Below, piece by piece: positions 15,947 through 20,843 of a stretch of 64,000 nucleotides of DNA. How positions within the stretch are numbered: the first letter of the stretch is position 1; every line of letters starts with the position of its first letter. Both the position numbers and the translations under genes were made by a program. The stretch comes from a virus, in IMG/VR virus record IMGVR_UViG_3300043446_002688, one strand, 5' to 3'. The notes beneath the pieces were generated by a model. The model worked only from the letters and a program-made list of their open reading frames with translations. It did no database searches and had not been told where the DNA came from.

Positions 15947-17362
15947 TTAAACAACTCTAGTCGAATCAAATATCATTCGTAAGAAAGAATCCTCTTGGTT
16001 TCTGACTGAAGGAATTTGTTTCTTAACTGGTGTAGTTTCTATCTTTTTGTTTACGTTTGTTTGTGTATTTTGTTCAGGTTGTGATTTGTTTAATTTGCCA
16101 ACACTTATTCTATTGTTTAAATTTTCATTAGCTGCAGCATTTAATCTAGAACCAACATTATCATTATTGCCAACTGGAACTCCAGTTGCTGTGGCATTTT
16201 GTCTTTGAAGTTTTGCATTTTCATTAGCATAATAAGTGTTTTCATCAATTTTTAATCCTGTAACAGGATCAAATTTTCCACCCCAGGTTCTGTCCCATTC
16301 CTCAGCACTTCTTAAATTTTTACCTTCAGATGTGTCTGGTCTAGGAACGACTTTAGTTATGGTTTCATTTTTGAATCTCATATCTTTTGGAATTTTTACA
16401 TTTTTTTGTTTTACAACCTTCTCTAAAAATTCCTTGCCGCCAGCCTGATTCATTTCCACTTCATCATTACGTTCCAATATTTCTGCGGCTCGAGCGGGAC
16501 CATTAATTATAATATCTTTTAACGCTTCTTCACCACCTAATTTAACAATATCACGTTCAGAAGCATTCTCTAAGGCCGCTGCAGCTTCTTCAGGACTAAT
16601 AACATTTCTGTTTGCAATTCTTTTTACACTCCAAGCCAATAGTTCAGCCAAACCTAAAATGGTTGCAACTGTCAACACGGCAGGATTCATTAAAACAAAT
16701 CTGAATAAACTGGAACCCAAAAATCTTAATAATGATCCAAACACCTTCATTCCACCGAAAATATCGGATATAATTTTTTTGAAATCGAAATTGGCCATAA
16801 AATTTTTCAACCAATCGGTTAAACTATCAAATCGGTTTCCTTTTCCAGATTTTTTAATTTTTCCACCAGAAAGAACTGTTAGTAATTCTTTGTGGCGTCT
16901 TTCTTCTTCCAGTTGGTGTTCTTCTTCTAAGTTTTTGGCCAGTTCAAGACGCTTCAAATTATCTTCATGTACACCAGATAATAAATTATGCATCTTTTTC
17001 AATGTTTCTGACAATCCAGACATCTCTTGTGTTTTATCAACAGGACCCAATTTAGTCAACTTATCACCAGTTTTTTCACGAATTGGTTTCAAACGACCTG
17101 TGAAATATTGAATGTCTTTTGCATCTCTACCCATCATGTGTCCCAATAGTGCAGGACCTAAGGATGAACCAAAGGTCAACATTTTTGCAATATTGAGAGG
17201 ATCAAATTTTTGTGTGATGCCTTTAACAGAAGCACGTGTTTTCAGGGAAATTGTTTTCTTAATTGCTGTACTAATCTTCTTTTCATACATCAATTGGTCA
17301 GCAAACAGGCTCATCAAGCCTGTATTTCTAATTCGTTTGGCTTGTTGGTATGTAATACTCAT
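15947..17362 (-). CDS. Tape-measure/baseplate-hub-like protein (gp29-like), second paralog
   Basis: Helical, with a hydrophobic central segment; follows the gp26/51-like locus. Confidence 0.55.
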   Translation of the reverse strand: MSITYQQAKRIRNTGLMSLFADQLMYEKKISTAIKKTISLKTRASVKGITQKFDPLNIAKMLTFGSSLGPALLGHMMGRDAKDIQYFTGRLKPIREKTGDKLTKLGPVDKTQEMSGLSETLKKMHNLLSGVHEDNLKRLELAKNLEEEHQLEEERRHKELLTVLSGGKIKKSGKGNRFDSLTDWLKNFMANFDFKKIISDIFGGMKVFGSLLRFLGSSLFRFVLMNPAVLTVATILGLAELLAWSVKRIANRNVISPEEAAAALENASERDIVKLGGEEALKDIIINGPARAAEILERNDEVEMNQAGGKEFLEKVVKQKNVKIPKDMRFKNETITKVVPRPDTSEGKNLRSAEEWDRTWGGKFDPVTGLKIDENTYYANENAKLQRQNATATGVPVGNNDNVGSRLNAAANENLNNRISVGKLNKSQPEQNTQTNVNKKIETTPVKKQIPSVRNQEDSFLRMIFDSTRVV

Positions 17363-19347
17363 ACTGTCCTACTCTTTCTTTCGTATGCGGATCTATCATC
17401 ATACTTTTCATTAGGTGTTGCAGAACTTTGTTTCTGAATCATATTAATATTATTCTGATTGATTGTTGATGATGCAACTTTTGTGGAATTCAAACTATTA
17501 TGCAATTCTTTGTTTTCTATACTACTTTCACCCAATTTAATTTCGTTTGGTTGAATTGCTGGTGGCGGCACACCTATTTCGCCGGACATTTTTTGTCGTT
17601 TTAAAATCCTAGCTTTCAATCCTTCAATGAACCTTTTTGGATCTTTGGCGTTTGATATGGCAGTACCAAAAGATTTTTCTATCGTAGATAAATCATATTC
17701 ACTTATCTTATCAATAAATTCCAACGACGTGGTTGAATTTTTTGAATGTTCTAATGCACGTTTTAATCCAACAGCATTCATTTGGTCATACCTGTCGGAC
17801 ATATAAGCAATTACACGTGGATCTTTGGCGATACTGTCGGATATTCCAGAATTACTCAACAATTTTACGGTTGGTTTGTAGACATGTTTTTCATACCATA
17901 TCAACTGAGCATCATACATTTCCTGTGCTCTGGTTGCAGCCACTTTCCTAAACTCAGCATCAAACTCAGGAGTTGCAGGTTTTGATTTAAAACCAAATTG
18001 TGGATTTTCTGCAACAAATGATTGTATTGATTGTGAATTTGGACCTGAATTCAATCCCAACATACCGTAAGATGTTATTCCTGGTGCTGGATCGTTTGGT
18101 ACAACCTGACCGACTCTATCCGACAAAGATCCTCTATGGCCGGTTTCGCCAGCAATAGTAATATTGGCCGCTGCCAAGACTTCAGCACTTACAGCTGACG
18201 AAGCTACGACCGCAGCGGCCGCAGCACCTCCCTTTATAGCATTTTTGCCCACTGATGATACTGGTGGTGTGCCAGAAACTTTTGGTGGAGGAGTTGGTGT
18301 GTTCGGTTTAGTTTCAACCTTTTTTGGTTTGTCAGGTACCTTTTTTTGTTGTTTACTTACTTTTGGTGGTGTCTGTTTAGTGACTTTCGGTGTACCTGTT
18401 GGTGTTGTTCTTGGTGTCGGAGTTGCCGGTGGTGTCGTGGGTGTAGTTGCAGGCTTTGCAGCTGGTGTTGAAGGTGTTTGTGGTGTAGTTGCAGGCTTTG
18501 CTGCTGGTGTTGCCGGTGTTTGTGGTGTAGTTCCGGTTGGTTCAGTTTTAGCTGCTGGTTTTGGTTTTCCTCCGGTCGATAATTCGGAAGGTTCTGTAGC
18601 CTTTTTCTTTTTACTGACCATTTTCTTTCTCTTGCCGAAATTCAAAATAGTCAAAGCTTCAATTATTTCTTTGTGTTTTTTTTCAGTTCTTATTTCTTTT
18701 TGTTCGGCCTGATTTTTGGCCATTTCCCATCTAAGTTTATCGTCAACTTGAATTTTGACCATCAATTTATAAATTCCACCGAGAATTTGTTCCGCATTAG
18801 CGCCTTCTGGTACAGAATTTTTATCAATACTATTGTTGATTGTTTTTAATATTTTAGAAATATTTTTTTGTGTTACAGGTGATGTTTTTTGTGGACCAGT
18901 TAAAACATCTTTCTCTTGTACATTACTTGGAACATCATTCTTTTGGTTTGAAGATGTTGATTTTTGACCACCAGTTGAACCAGCAATCATTTTAGCCATC
19001 AAAGGTGTAAGAATAGACTCTTTATAACCTTTCTTTGTAGCCATTTGCATTTGGCGTTGCAACATATTATCATCAGATTGTTGTTTGGCCAACTTTTTAA
19101 CCAAATCTATCTGTTCTTTTGTTAAGTCGTGGCCACCATTACTCATCAATGTTGCAACATCACCACTTGTAAACAATTGGTAAAATGTCTTATCGTCCAT
19201 CTTACGCATATTTTTTTCAGAAGGTAAACCACCAGTCATAGCAGTTCCAGCACCTTCAATTGAAAAAGAAGATGTTGAAGTTGGATTTTTACTAGGATGC
19301 AAAGCATTGATAGTTTTGACAATCCCTTTTGATATTCTACTTACCAT
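17359..19347 (-). CDS. Tape-measure-like protein with Pro/Ala/Thr linker and putative lysozyme-fold domain
   Basis: Helical N-terminus; PAAKPATTPQTP repeats; ETG...DP.PGITSYG resembles VgrG3-type muramidases. Confidence 0.55.
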   Translation of the reverse strand: MVSRISKGIVKTINALHPSKNPTSTSSFSIEGAGTAMTGGLPSEKNMRKMDDKTFYQLFTSGDVATLMSNGGHDLTKEQIDLVKKLAKQQSDDNMLQRQMQMATKKGYKESILTPLMAKMIAGSTGGQKSTSSNQKNDVPSNVQEKDVLTGPQKTSPVTQKNISKILKTINNSIDKNSVPEGANAEQILGGIYKLMVKIQVDDKLRWEMAKNQAEQKEIRTEKKHKEIIEALTILNFGKRKKMVSKKKKATEPSELSTGGKPKPAAKTEPTGTTPQTPATPAAKPATTPQTPSTPAAKPATTPTTPPATPTPRTTPTGTPKVTKQTPPKVSKQQKKVPDKPKKVETKPNTPTPPPKVSGTPPVSSVGKNAIKGGAAAAAVVASSAVSAEVLAAANITIAGETGHRGSLSDRVGQVVPNDPAPGITSYGMLGLNSGPNSQSIQSFVAENPQFGFKSKPATPEFDAEFRKVAATRAQEMYDAQLIWYEKHVYKPTVKLLSNSGISDSIAKDPRVIAYMSDRYDQMNAVGLKRALEHSKNSTTSLEFIDKISEYDLSTIEKSFGTAISNAKDPKRFIEGLKARILKRQKMSGEIGVPPPAIQPNEIKLGESSIENKELHNSLNSTKVASSTINQNNINMIQKQSSATPNEKYDDRSAYERKSRTV
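18420..18555 (-). repeat. About 39-bp coding tandem repeat (TPQTP[A/S]TPAAKPAT)
   Basis: tgtggtgtagttgcaggctttgc recurs with 39-nt period. Confidence 0.75.
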
Positions 19348-19350
19348 TTA

Positions 19351-19539
19351 TTAAGTTCTCATTTGTTCTTTTATTTTTTTATTTTCTTCCTCAAGATATT
19401 GTATTAACATAGTAACATATATGTCCCTTTCCCAAGGTATCATATTTTCCAATTCAGTTAGACTATACTTATGGTGTTGCATCATCGCAAAATTAGTCTT
19501 ATAATAGTTTCCCAAATCATCATAACGAAGTATTAACCG
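19351..19539 (-). CDS. gp51: gp51-like frame (not in the ORF track); -1 relative to the upstream gene
   Basis: RLILRYDDLGNYYKTNFAMMQHHKYSLTELENMIPWERDIYVTMLIQYLEEENKKIKEQMRT*; first ATG only at 19485. Confidence 0.8.
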   Translation of the reverse strand, partial: RLILRYDDLGNYYKTNFAMMQHHKYSLTELENMIPWERDIYVTMLIQYLEEENKKIKEQMRT

Positions 19540-20273
19540 AAAAAATCTTCAAGGCCCTCCACCTCAAAGTTGTGTACATAACCACACTTTTTACAAGTCA
19601 TTTGAATTTTTTGTGTCATTCTAGGCATATTGTTGAAAAATTCTTCTAGTTTTTCAAACTGTTCTTGATTTAAATTTTCCACAAATTCAATAAGTTCTTC
19701 TTCGGATATCTCACTTGAATAATAAAATTGTTCTCCGTCAAAAATATGTTCTATACAACTTGCAATCATCTTAAAGGTTAAAGATGCAACATCACTGTAA
19801 TCAACATCTGCATTTAATAACCTAAATTCTGGATATTTCATCTTAATTACAATTTTTTCGGTCAGATGTATTTCAGGATCAACAATTTTATCTTGTACAG
19901 GTAGAATTTGAGTTAAATTAATTTTTGTTTCAATTATATTGCCACATTCTTTCGTGTTTCCATCTTCTTTTATCACTTCATTGTTGCAACGGTATTTGGA
20001 TTCCACAATTTCGCCTACCGATTTGGCACGCAATTGTAAAAACAAATACTCAATATCAATGATAGGAACAGAAGAAATATTAAATTCTGGTGTTAAAATA
20101 CAAGTGTTCAGAACATCCAAAATGGAAGACTGAATTGTTTTACTATCTTTTGATTCCATTGCCATCAATAGAATCTTTTGTTCCTTTACTAAGAAAGGAC
20201 GATATTTAATCGTTTTCTTTGATATGGGTAATTCAAGTTCATAAGTTGGCACTTCAAGTTTTGGTAAAGCCAT
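19533..20273 (-). CDS. gp26: Baseplate hub assembly protein (gp26-like)
   Basis: MALPKLEVPTYELELP...IKYRPFLVKEQKILLMA, DIEYLFLQLRAKSVGE, two Cys pairs, FFNNMP, EGLEDFF. Confidence 0.88.
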   Translation of the reverse strand: MALPKLEVPTYELELPISKKTIKYRPFLVKEQKILLMAMESKDSKTIQSSILDVLNTCILTPEFNISSVPIIDIEYLFLQLRAKSVGEIVESKYRCNNEVIKEDGNTKECGNIIETKINLTQILPVQDKIVDPEIHLTEKIVIKMKYPEFRLLNADVDYSDVASLTFKMIASCIEHIFDGEQFYYSSEISEEELIEFVENLNQEQFEKLEEFFNNMPRMTQKIQMTCKKCGYVHNFEVEGLEDFFG

Positions 20274-20288
20274 AATAACTCCTCAAGG

Positions 20289-20843
20289 TTAAAATATATT
20301 AAAGAATGAATTTTGATTCCAGGAATTGTTTCTCCATTCAGTATATGCAAATGTTACAGTTAAACGGTGGTATCCATCTGAACTCCAGTCCAAATCTAAT
20401 TGGTTGACTGATATTGGATAAGCCTCATGCAATTCAACTGCATAAGACAATTTGTTTGAGACATCATATTGATTGATAAAGACAGTTGTGCAATAATCTG
20501 ACCTAAAATTAAAATCGTTTGTTGTTCTAGGATTGACCAATTCTAGCCAACCATCAAAAAAATACTTTGTTGCCATCGTATCATCAACAATAAAAGTCAA
20601 ATCCAAATCATTATATGTGGTCAAATATGGTAACTTTTCAATAGGACCATATGTTTTTCTTTCGGTTGTTGCAAGTGTTCGACCTGGTAGTTCCGCATTT
20701 TCACAACGATACATCAATTCTCTGGATGTTGTAAGTGTCGATGCAACCAATGTTAATGGTGCAATAATACGCACATCAAAACGACTTGAACGTGCAGGGT
20801 CTCTGGTAAAACTGGATTTGAATTCGGATATACTTCCGGCCAT
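20289..20843 (-). CDS. Tail-tube-like baseplate protein (gp54/gp19 family)
   Basis: RSSRFDV, CENAELPGRTLAT, YNDLDLTF, FFDGWLE, EAYPISVN...L, LTVTFAY. Confidence 0.8.
   Translation of the reverse strand: MAGSISEFKSSFTRDPARSSRFDVRIIAPLTLVASTLTTSRELMYRCENAELPGRTLATTERKTYGPIEKLPYLTTYNDLDLTFIVDDTMATKYFFDGWLELVNPRTTNDFNFRSDYCTTVFINQYDVSNKLSYAVELHEAYPISVNQLDLDWSSDGYHRLTVTFAYTEWRNNSWNQNSFFNIF

What the first reader, a model, noticed from the sequence alone, without database searches (positions are those of the whole stretch)
19351..19560. Candidate -1 frameshift fusing the gp26-like and gp51-like frames just upstream of the tape-measure-like genes
Seen: gp26-like ends GAT TTT TTC GGT TAA, i.e. an in-register U-UUU-UUC heptamer (plus-strand 19539-19545), with GGAGG (19556-19560) exactly 10 nt upstream. 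The -1 frame is open for 62 codons. Its gp51-like sequence (YYKTNFA) begins before the first ATG, and it ends TAA TAA ATG at the next gene. Established: dnaX uses an SD about 10 nt upstream to stimulate -1 slippage; lambda, P2 and Mu have a G/G-T chaperone frameshift between the tube and tape-measure genes. Inference: a 246-aa product plus a 307-aa fusion, extending the G/G-T rule to T4-like phages and explaining short gp51 annotations. I do not know of a description for this group.
Basis: partly seen in the sequence, partly recalled or inferred. Interest (0 to 1): 0.82.

Follow-up and report, generated by a model that had tools for sequence, protein, structure and literature searches.

The report
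Frameshift in baseplate-hub chaperone gene
One tail-assembly gene of this T4-related phage very probably makes a short (246 aa) and a long (307 aa) protein, because some ribosomes slip back one base on a strictly conserved TTTTTTC run. Phage T4 makes the same pair from two separate genes (26 and 51), and the shared part folds like the tail assembly chaperones of other long-tailed phages.

Summary
The gp26-like gene (19533-20273, minus strand; Pfam T4_baseplate, E 8e-63) ends GAT TTT TTC GGT TAA. The -1 frame is open for 62 codons from the heptamer (19539-19545) and encodes a gp51 C-terminal domain (phrog_634, E 3e-30).

Comparison supports a programmed -1 frameshift:
- Six Ts are invariant in all 89 junctions I could read. 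These include GC-rich phages and at least 12 distant T4-superfamily lineages.
- Codon periodicity switches from frame 0 to frame -1 at the heptamer.
- The conserved peptide FFR(L/I)...NYYKTNF lies upstream of any conserved start codon.
- T4 keeps Phe-Phe as the non-slippery TTC TTT and encodes gp51 as a separate full-length gene. T4 gp51 has the predicted fused architecture and aligns without a gap across the junction.

AlphaFold models place the first ~90 residues of gp26 nearest the HK97 tail assembly chaperone and YqbN (Z 6.9-7.8), which supports the lambda G/GT analogy.

Three claims are not supported. The upstream GGAGG is not conserved. This window has no downstream hairpin. The 662-aa downstream protein is not shown to be a tape measure.

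I found no published description. This scan has already flagged the same feature in at least 128 other genomes. There is no experimental evidence.

The parts
19533..20273 (-). gp26-like gene, frame 0: 246-aa short product (baseplate hub assembly chaperone family). The stop TAA is at 19533-19535.
   Evidence: ORF list. Pfam PF12322 T4_baseplate E 7.9e-63, 212.5 bits against a cut-off of 24.5. phrog_150 'baseplate hub' E 1.7e-66. BLASTP to T4 gp26 E 4e-14. AF2 model pLDDT 93.6.
19539..19545 (-). Slippery heptamer T_TTT_TTC, in register X_XXY_YYZ with frame 0: the proposed -1 shift site, one sense codon before the stop.
   Evidence: Sequence. T46-T51 are invariant in the 48 unique junctions of alignment A1. 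NNT TTT TTC GNN stop is present in all readable IMG/VR relatives. T_TTT_TT(C/T/G) is present in 14 named phages of distant lineages.
19549..19551 (-). TGA in the -1 frame. It closes that frame two codons upstream of the heptamer, so any entry into the -1 frame must occur between 19548 and 19536.
   Evidence: Translation of the -1 frame: GGP*RFFRLIL.
19354..19539 (-). -1 frame extension of 62 codons (RLILRYDDLGNYYKTNF...), a Gp51_C domain predicted as three helices. The stop TAA is at 19351-19353.
   Evidence: phrog_634 'baseplate hub assembly catalyst' E 2.6e-30, and a match to the C-terminal end of phrog_150. BLASTP to T4 gp51 residues 200-245, E 5e-7. Relatives carry PF28602 Gp51_C. Third-position variability is in the -1 frame. 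29 of 64 columns are invariant in the clade, including residues before any start codon.
19556..19560 (-). GGAGG, 10 nt upstream of the heptamer. It is a possible local stimulator but is not conserved.
   Evidence: Sequence. It overlaps the conserved Glu-Gly codons. Relatives read GAAGG, GAGGG, CAAGG, AAAGG or ACGAA at this place.
20289..20843 (-). Upstream neighbour (context): a 184-aa tail-tube-fold protein of the gp54/gp19 type.
   Evidence: Pfam Phage_TTP_2 E 1.3e-6. phrog_45 'tail tube' E 1.9e-35. The equivalent gene is annotated 'baseplate tail tube initiator' in phiM9, RL2RES and AS-szw.
17359..19347 (-). Downstream neighbour (context): a 662-aa protein with a Pro/Thr-rich linker and a VgrG3-like_C (cell-wall hydrolase) domain. 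Its identity as a tape measure is not shown.
   Evidence: Pfam PF21277 E 5.5e-6, 26.9 bits against a cut-off of 27. Atlas neighbours carry PF21277. No PDB sequence match, no PHROG match, and no similarity to T4 gp29.

Best explanation
This is a programmed -1 ribosomal frameshift. Most ribosomes translating the gp26-like gene read GAT TTT TTC GGT and stop, giving the 246-aa short form. A minority slip back one base while the two Phe tRNAs sit on U_UUU_UUC. They then read CGG UUA AUA... and add a 62-residue helical Gp51_C domain, giving a 307-aa long form with the same first 245 residues. The two forms correspond to T4 gp26 and gp51, both listed as hub assembly chaperones, and I infer that they act like the G/GT pair of other long-tailed phages. 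The shared N-terminal TAC-like domain would hold the growing hub or tape-measure assembly. The rare long form would add a second binding module. The slip rate would fix their ratio. Shown here: the sequence anatomy, its conservation, the change of coding frame at the heptamer, the architecture of T4 gp51, and the fold similarity. Inferred: that slippage occurs, its efficiency (probably low here, since there is no hairpin), and the binding partners.
For: (1) Six Ts are invariant and the heptamer is in register in all 89 junctions found, including 48 unique ones. The preceding codon varies in amino acid (N/S/D) but always ends in T. GC-rich phages ACP17 and DLP6 still use GAT/AAT TTT TTC. (2) The base after the heptamer is G and the stop is TAA, TGA or TAG. 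As a result frame -1 always reads F-F-R-(L/I/M), while the frame-0 residue varies among G, V and A. (3) In the window clade, third-position entropy lies in frame 0 upstream (1.22 against 0.42 and 0.32). It lies in frame -1 from the stop onward (0.97 against 0.27 and 0.16). (4) No start codon is conserved before the conserved NYYKTNF. The -1 frame is closed two codons upstream of the heptamer. S-RIM2, ACG-2014e, C48C1, AS-szw, ACP17 and SRB7757 also have no nearby ATG. (5) Natural controls: T4 and Cronus gp26 keep Phe-Phe as TTC TTT and have no downstream -1 ORF. (6) T4 gp51 is PF12322 over residues 1-201 plus a tail of about 48 aa that aligns to the window's -1 peptide. Trans-frame products of 11 lineages align with three T4-type gp51 proteins with no gap at the junction. 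(7) Of the 150 best cluster representatives, the complete ones end at the junction. (8) Residues 1-95 of two independent AF2 models match the HK97 tail assembly chaperone 2ob9 (Z 7.7 and 6.9), YqbN 3klu (7.3) and 3fgx (7.8 and 7.7). The next unrelated rows score 4.2-5.0.
Against: There is no experimental evidence: no peptide, reporter or ribosome profiling data. This window has no significant downstream RNA structure (-2.7 kcal/mol, z +1.5), and RNAalifold finds no consensus structure, so efficiency may be low. The GGAGG is not conserved. Ackermannviridae and Vibrio phage D495 lack the heptamer. Two of these three (Ds25CZ, D495) express the small domain from its own ATG (TAATG), so a free Gp51_C can be functional. 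Several heptamer-bearing phages also have an ATG at the stop. The fold Z-scores are below 8, and no sequence or profile link to TAC families was found.
Confidence: 0.85

Rival explanations
1. There is no frameshift. The gp51-like domain is made only as a small free protein, by re-initiation or coupling after the gp26 stop, at TTG 19515, ATG 19485 or a non-canonical codon.
For: Dickeya Ds25CZ and Vibrio D495 have no heptamer and a TAATG overlap start, so a free domain works in those lineages. D482, phiM9, RSP15, RL2RES, DLP6, P-SSM2 and S-SKS1 have an ATG at or near the stop.
Against: In the window clade the TTG equivalent is TTA or CTG in 15 of 34 members, and the ATG equivalent is ATA in 4 of 34. 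Neither has an SD. Amino-acid conservation and frame -1 periodicity begin at the heptamer, upstream of these codons. This reading does not explain why NNT TTT TTY is invariant, even in GC-rich genomes, while T4 uses TTC TTT.
Confidence: 0.06
2. The long form arises by transcriptional slippage. RNA polymerase adds one extra U on the T6 run, so a fraction of mRNAs carry the two frames fused.
For: The conserved element is a homopolymer run. The protein outcome would be almost identical. Rare contigs carry T7 or neighbouring indels that fuse the frames.
Against: From general knowledge, productive transcriptional slippage usually needs runs of about 8-9 or more, and here the run is 6-7. The element always fits the X_XXY_YYZ register with frame 0. 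Several lineages add a hairpin 6 nt downstream (P-SSM2 z -3.9, ACP17 -3.7), which is the geometry of a ribosomal stimulator.
Confidence: 0.05
3. It is a sequencing or assembly error in a homopolymer, or a recent pseudogenising mutation. The true gene would be a single fused ORF.
For: Six singleton proteins of 294-302 aa carry both domains in one frame.
Against: The same split arrangement occurs in 89 independent loci, in isolate genomes from many laboratories, and in nearly all of the 150 best cluster representatives. The fused contigs differ by 1-2 nt indels at or next to the run. Two of them are nanopore assemblies polished with Pilon.
Confidence: 0.01
4. The T run is conserved for another reason, for example as a pause or coupling signal for the downstream genes or as a DNA-level signal, and no fusion is made.
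For: None directly. It is the residual possibility, because no product has been observed.
Against: It does not account for a frame -1 coding signal that starts exactly at the run, or for the colinear match to T4 gp51 across the junction.
Confidence: 0.03

Closest known systems
Phage T4 gp26 (208 aa) and gp51 (249 aa), hub assembly chaperones (Leiman et al. 2010, PMC3004832, Table 2)
   Same: The family is the same: PF12322 covers all of gp26 and residues 1-201 of gp51. The window's short form matches gp26 (E 4e-14). The predicted long form has the architecture of gp51 and aligns with it across the junction. T4 and Cronus gp26 even keep FF(E/R)LL at the C-terminal end.
   Different: T4 encodes the two forms as separate, divergently transcribed genes with no slippery site (TTC TTT). 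Here one gene plus a frameshift would give both, and the short and long forms share an identical N-terminal part.
Lambda gpG/gpGT and the conserved -1 frameshift of tail assembly chaperone genes in long-tailed phages (Xu, Hendrix and Duda 2004, Mol Cell 16:11, cited from memory and listed as ref. 38 of PMC9024508). P2 E/E+E' slips on TTTTTTG (from memory).
   Same: There are two overlapping frames with the second in -1. An X_XXY_YYZ heptamer sits at the very end of the first ORF. The short and long forms share the N-terminal part. A tube-fold gene lies upstream. The N-terminal ~90 residues fold like the HK97 tail assembly chaperone and YqbN/XkdN. phiM9 and RL2RES use TTTTTTG.
   Different: The Pfam family is different, and I found no sequence or profile link. 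gp26 carries an extra ~150-residue beta/zinc-ribbon domain. The downstream gene is not shown to be the tape measure. T4 genetics ties the family to hub assembly, not to tube length.
E. coli dnaX -1 frameshift (A_AAA_AAG with an upstream SD and a downstream hairpin; established knowledge)
   Same: This window has a GGAGG 10 nt upstream of the heptamer.
   Different: The SD-like element is not conserved among relatives. There is no downstream hairpin here. The shift extends the protein, whereas in dnaX it truncates it.

Membership tests
T4 gp26/gp51 family (Pfam PF12322 T4_baseplate, with PF28602 Gp51_C) | The frame-0 product matches PF12322 above the gathering score. | tested here: met
   212.5 bits against a cut-off of 24.5, covering profile positions 2-218 of 219.
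T4 gp26/gp51 family (Pfam PF12322 T4_baseplate, with PF28602 Gp51_C) | The C-terminal extension is homologous to the tail of T4 gp51. | tested here: met
   phrog_634 E 2.6e-30. BLASTP to T4 gp51 residues 200-245, E 5e-7. Close relatives carry a precomputed PF28602 Gp51_C hit. PF28602 is not in the local Pfam copy, so the window's own peptide was not scored against it.
T4 gp26/gp51 family (Pfam PF12322 T4_baseplate, with PF28602 Gp51_C) | Required for baseplate hub assembly and absent from the finished particle. | not testable with these tools
   This needs genetics and virion proteomics. The T4 data are quoted from PMC3004832.
Frameshifted tail assembly chaperone pair (lambda G/GT type) | The second ORF is in the -1 frame, overlaps the end of the first, and has no conserved start of its own. 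| tested here: met
Frameshifted tail assembly chaperone pair (lambda G/GT type) | An in-register X_XXY_YYZ heptamer near the 3' end of the first ORF, conserved among relatives. | tested here: met
   Found in 89 of 89 junctions that carry the -1 ORF without a full-length gp51 paralogue. The six Ts are invariant.
Frameshifted tail assembly chaperone pair (lambda G/GT type) | TAC fold of the shared N-terminal part. | tested here: met
   VIA-align against 48,161 chains with two independent models. 2ob9_B (HK97 tail assembly chaperone): Z 7.7 and 6.9, rmsd 3.8-4.0, 85 of 104 residues aligned. 3klu_A (YqbN): Z 7.3. 3fgx_B: Z 7.8 and 7.7. The next unrelated rows score 5.0 and 4.2. Caveats: Z is below 8, Foldseek found nothing, and there is no sequence-level link.
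Frameshifted tail assembly chaperone pair (lambda G/GT type) | The gene pair lies between the tail tube gene and the tape measure gene. | tested here: inconclusive
   The upstream gene has a tube fold. The downstream 662-aa protein shows only a marginal VgrG3-like_C domain and no match to gp29 or to any tape measure family.
Frameshifted tail assembly chaperone pair (lambda G/GT type) | Both products are made, with the long form a minor fraction. The short part binds the tape measure and the extension binds tube protein. | not testable with these tools
dnaX-type stimulated -1 frameshift | A conserved upstream SD-like element and a downstream stem-loop. | tested here: not met
   GGAGG is present here but is replaced by GAAGG, CAAGG, ACGAA and others in relatives. 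The 55 nt after the heptamer fold at -2.7 kcal/mol, z +1.5. There is no consensus structure.

The most novel reading that the evidence does not exclude
gp26 and gp51 are the T4 superfamily's homologues of the G/GT tail assembly chaperones. The frameshifted single gene would be the ancestral state, kept in Kyanoviridae, Pootjesviridae, the KVP40-like and Aeromonas-65-like Straboviridae and this phage. T4 and its close kin would have replaced the frameshift by duplicating the gene and fixing one copy in the fused frame. The 'catalytic' gp51 of T4 would then be a GT-type chaperone, and the conserved tail-chaperone frameshift would extend to essentially all long-tailed phages.
Probability: 0.5. 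Interest if true: 0.75.

Novelty: new member of a known kind. Interest (0 to 1): 0.66.

Why it matters
T4 gp26 and gp51 have been essential proteins of unknown mechanism for decades, and T4-like phages were the main long-tailed group without a recognised tail-chaperone frameshift. If the slip is real, three things follow. The conserved G/GT logic extends to the T4 superfamily. It gives a concrete, testable model for T4 hub assembly, with gp51 as a GT-type chaperone. It also corrects the annotation of hundreds of marine and freshwater T4-like genomes, in which 'gp51' is called with arbitrary starts (57, 45 or 34 aa) or not at all. T4 would serve as a natural experiment in which a frameshift was replaced by two genes.

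Tried and rejected
- RNAalifold on 48 aligned junctions found no consensus structure. Single-sequence folds show a hairpin only in some lineages and none here, so I dropped a conserved RNA stimulator.
- SD stimulator: rejected as a conserved feature.
- Foldseek against the PDB gave nothing at E <= 0.001. A profile of A2 against PDB sequences gave nothing relevant.
- 662-aa and 471-aa downstream ORFs: no PDB sequence hit, no PHROG hit at E <= 0.1, and no similarity to T4 gp29. I therefore do not call either a tape measure.
- In-frame fused ORFs were considered as evidence that the split is an error. I rejected this after reading their junctions and after the representative search.
- A second gp26/gp51 copy was looked for in the window and not found. 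No whole genome is held, so a separate gp51 elsewhere in this phage cannot be excluded.
- Megablast of 12 kb of the window against the phage collection found no close relative.
- Literature: six searches combining gp26, gp51, frameshift, cyanophage, baseplate hub and tail assembly chaperone found no report for T4-like phages.

Full report
**Observation.** On the minus strand the 246-aa ORF 19533-20273 ends GAT TTT TTC GGT TAA.
- The heptamer T_TTT_TTC occupies 19545-19539, in the X_XXY_YYZ register of frame 0.
- GGAGG lies at 19560-19556, 10 nt upstream of the heptamer.
- The -1 frame carries TGA at 19551-19549 and is then open through the heptamer for 62 further codons, to TAA 19353-19351. 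A second TAA follows, then the ATG of the next gene.
- A slip on the heptamer would give a 307-aa protein (245 + 62) with junction ...EGLEDFF|RLILRYDDLGNYYK.
- Slippery heptamers are not rare in this 38% GC window. There are 34 in register in ORFs of 100 aa or more. Only this one sits one codon before its stop with a long -1 frame behind it.

**Identity.**
- The frame-0 protein is a T4_baseplate family member (PF12322, E 7.9e-63; phrog_150) and matches T4 gp26 (E 4e-14).
- The -1 peptide matches phrog_634 'baseplate hub assembly catalyst' (E 2.6e-30). It also matches the C-terminal end of the gp26 profile phrog_150.
- Relatives carry the newer Pfam family PF28602, Gp51_C.

**Conservation of the shift site.** Relatives from IMG/VR have gp26 55-73% identical to the window's. 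Every readable junction among them reads NNT TTT TTC GNN stop, followed by about 60 open -1 codons.
- T_TTT_TTC occurs in P-SSM2, S-SKS1, S-RIM2, ACG-2014e, Vibrio D482 (KVP40-like), Stenotrophomonas DLP6, Acidovorax ACP17, Aeromonas AS-szw and Nitratidesulfovibrio SRB7757.
- T_TTT_TTT occurs in Sinorhizobium phiN3, Ralstonia RSP15 and C48C1.
- T_TTT_TTG occurs in phiM9 and RL2RES.
- In an ungapped alignment of 48 unique junctions the six Ts are invariant.
- The residue before Phe-Phe varies (N, S, D) but its codon always ends in T. GC-rich genomes that otherwise prefer C-ending codons still use GAT or AAT TTT TTC.
- The next base is G and the stop varies among TAA, TGA and TAG. Frame -1 therefore always reads F-F-R-(L/I/M), while the frame-0 residue varies among G, V and A.

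**Coding frame.** In the window's clade, third-position variability lies in frame 0 upstream of the heptamer (entropy 1.22 against 0.42 and 0.32). It lies in frame -1 from the stop onward (0.97 against 0.27 and 0.16).
- In the -1 peptide, 29 of 64 columns are invariant, including F1, F2, R3, R7, L11, N13 and Y15.
The TTG 19515 equivalent is TTA or CTG in 15 of 34 clade members. The ATG 19485 equivalent is ATA in 4 of 34. Neither is preceded by an SD.
- Database annotations of 'gp51' start at different places (57, 45 or 34 aa) or are missing. This is expected if the true N-terminus is not a start codon.

**Natural controls.**
- T4, Aes508 and Cronus have gene 26 and a full-length gene 51 as separate, divergent genes.
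- T4 and Cronus gp26 keep Phe-Phe as TTC TTT and end FF(E/R)LL*.
- T4 gp51 residues 1-201 cover the whole PF12322 profile (E 3.9e-52). Its residues 200-245 align to residues 2-49 of the window's -1 peptide (E 5e-7).
- Trans-frame products from 11 lineages align with the three T4-type gp51 proteins with no gap at the junction. T4 gp51 therefore has the architecture predicted for the frameshift product.
- Ackermannviridae (Ds25CZ, EP75) and Vibrio D495 lack the heptamer. Ds25CZ and D495 instead start the small ORF at a TAATG overlap. A free Gp51_C can therefore function, which keeps independent initiation alive as a minor rival.

**Single-ORF fusions are exceptions.** Only six singleton proteins of 294-302 aa carry both domains.
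- The three junctions I read differ from the canonical one by indels of 1-2 nt at or beside the T run. Two of them are Pilon-polished nanopore contigs.
- A search of 1.84 billion representatives with one such fusion gave 5198 hits. Among the best 150, the complete proteins are 230-250 aa and stop at the junction.

**Stimulators.**
- The GGAGG overlaps conserved Glu-Gly codons and is GAAGG in most of the clade. It is only RGG or absent in other lineages.
- A stable hairpin starts about 6 nt after the heptamer in P-SSM2 (z -3.9), ACP17 (-3.7), S-SKS1 (-2.5), phiN3 and RSP15.
- The window's 55 nt after the heptamer fold at -2.7 kcal/mol (z +1.5), and there is no consensus structure.
- Here the heptamer, the nearby stop and perhaps the GGAGG would act alone. 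This suggests a low slip rate, consistent with a long form needed only in small amounts. That last step is inference.

**Fold.** Two AlphaFold2 models were made. One is of a natural fusion (pLDDT 89.5) and one is of the window's own gp26 (pLDDT 93.6).
- Gp51_C is three helices joined to the body by a low-confidence linker.
- Foldseek found nothing.
- An exhaustive alignment against 48,161 PDB chains put the same entries on top for residues 1-95 in both models: 3fgx_B (Z 7.8 and 7.7), the HK97 tail assembly chaperone 2ob9_B (7.7 and 6.9; 85 of 104 residues aligned) and YqbN 3klu_A (7.3).
- The Vibrio PLE ORF19, 5ir0, came next (4.9 and 5.7), and unrelated rows followed at 5.0 and 4.2.
- YqbN is the skin-prophage paralogue of XkdN (from memory). 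PMC9406221 calls XkdN the PBSX tail assembly chaperone.
- The Z-scores are moderate and there is no sequence-level link. The hits are nevertheless consistent in function, reproducible, and cover whole target domains.

**Synteny.** The upstream gene has a tube fold (Phage_TTP_2, phrog_45). The downstream 662-aa protein shows only a marginal VgrG3-like_C hydrolase domain. Nothing links it to gp29 or to tape measure families. The 'upstream of the tape measure' part of the finding is unproven.

**Conclusion.** The most likely reading is a programmed -1 frameshift that yields gp26-like and gp51-like forms from one gene (confidence about 0.85).
- The rivals are independent initiation only (0.06), transcriptional slippage (0.05), another role for the T run (0.03) and sequencing error (0.01).
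- I found no publication describing it.
- Leiman et al. [quoted passage not shown]
- This scan has already recorded the same feature in at least 128 other genomes, and earlier follow-ups reached the same reading. I had stated my own reading before seeing them.
- No whole genome is held for this window, so a separate gp51 elsewhere in this phage is not excluded. There is none in the 64 kb.

Noticed in passing
window 17359-19347 (-): The 662-aa protein after gp51 has a Pro/Thr-rich low-complexity linker and a marginal VgrG3-like_C cell-wall hydrolase domain (26.9 bits against a cut-off of 27). Its Atlas neighbours include phage Gp5_OB + VgrG3-like_C proteins. It could be a hub/spike-associated hydrolase or a tape measure carrying a hydrolase.
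   Followed up: partly
window 19536-20010 (-), gp26 residues 88-242: The C-terminal two-thirds of gp26 is a beta-rich domain with two Cys pairs (C..C at about residues 96-110 and CKKC at 227-230). It gives repeated weak matches to DnaJ/Hsp40 C-terminal peptide-binding domains (3agz, 7zhs, 3lz8, 1nlt, 6jzb; Z 2.7-3.7). This is a weak lead towards a chaperone-like zinc-ribbon module.
   Followed up: no
L100 (Escherichia phage EP75) 1930-2102: This Kuttervirus has neither the slippery heptamer nor the TAATG start of its relative Ds25CZ. It reads TAATT. The conserved peptide IFEIDLLSYF... still continues in the -1 frame upstream of the annotated start. How this domain is translated there is unexplained.
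   Followed up: no
L101, L102, L103 (metagenome contigs): These are rare contigs in which gp26 and Gp51_C are in one frame through indels of 1-2 nt at or next to the T run. They may be assembly errors, or natural mutants that make only the long form.
   Followed up: partly
L004 (T4) 2803-2830 and L094 (Cronus): T4-type gp26 ends FF(E/R)LL*. It thus keeps the first three residues of what is the -1 extension in other lineages. This fits descent from a fused or frameshifted ancestor.
   Followed up: partly
L001 1535-1565 and L002 1726-1756: The hairpins after the heptamer in P-SSM2 and S-SKS1 differ by a compensatory change (GGCUCA...UGAGUC against GGCGCA...UGCGUC). This hints at a selected stimulator in cyanophages. 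It was not tested on a larger cyanophage set.
   Followed up: partly
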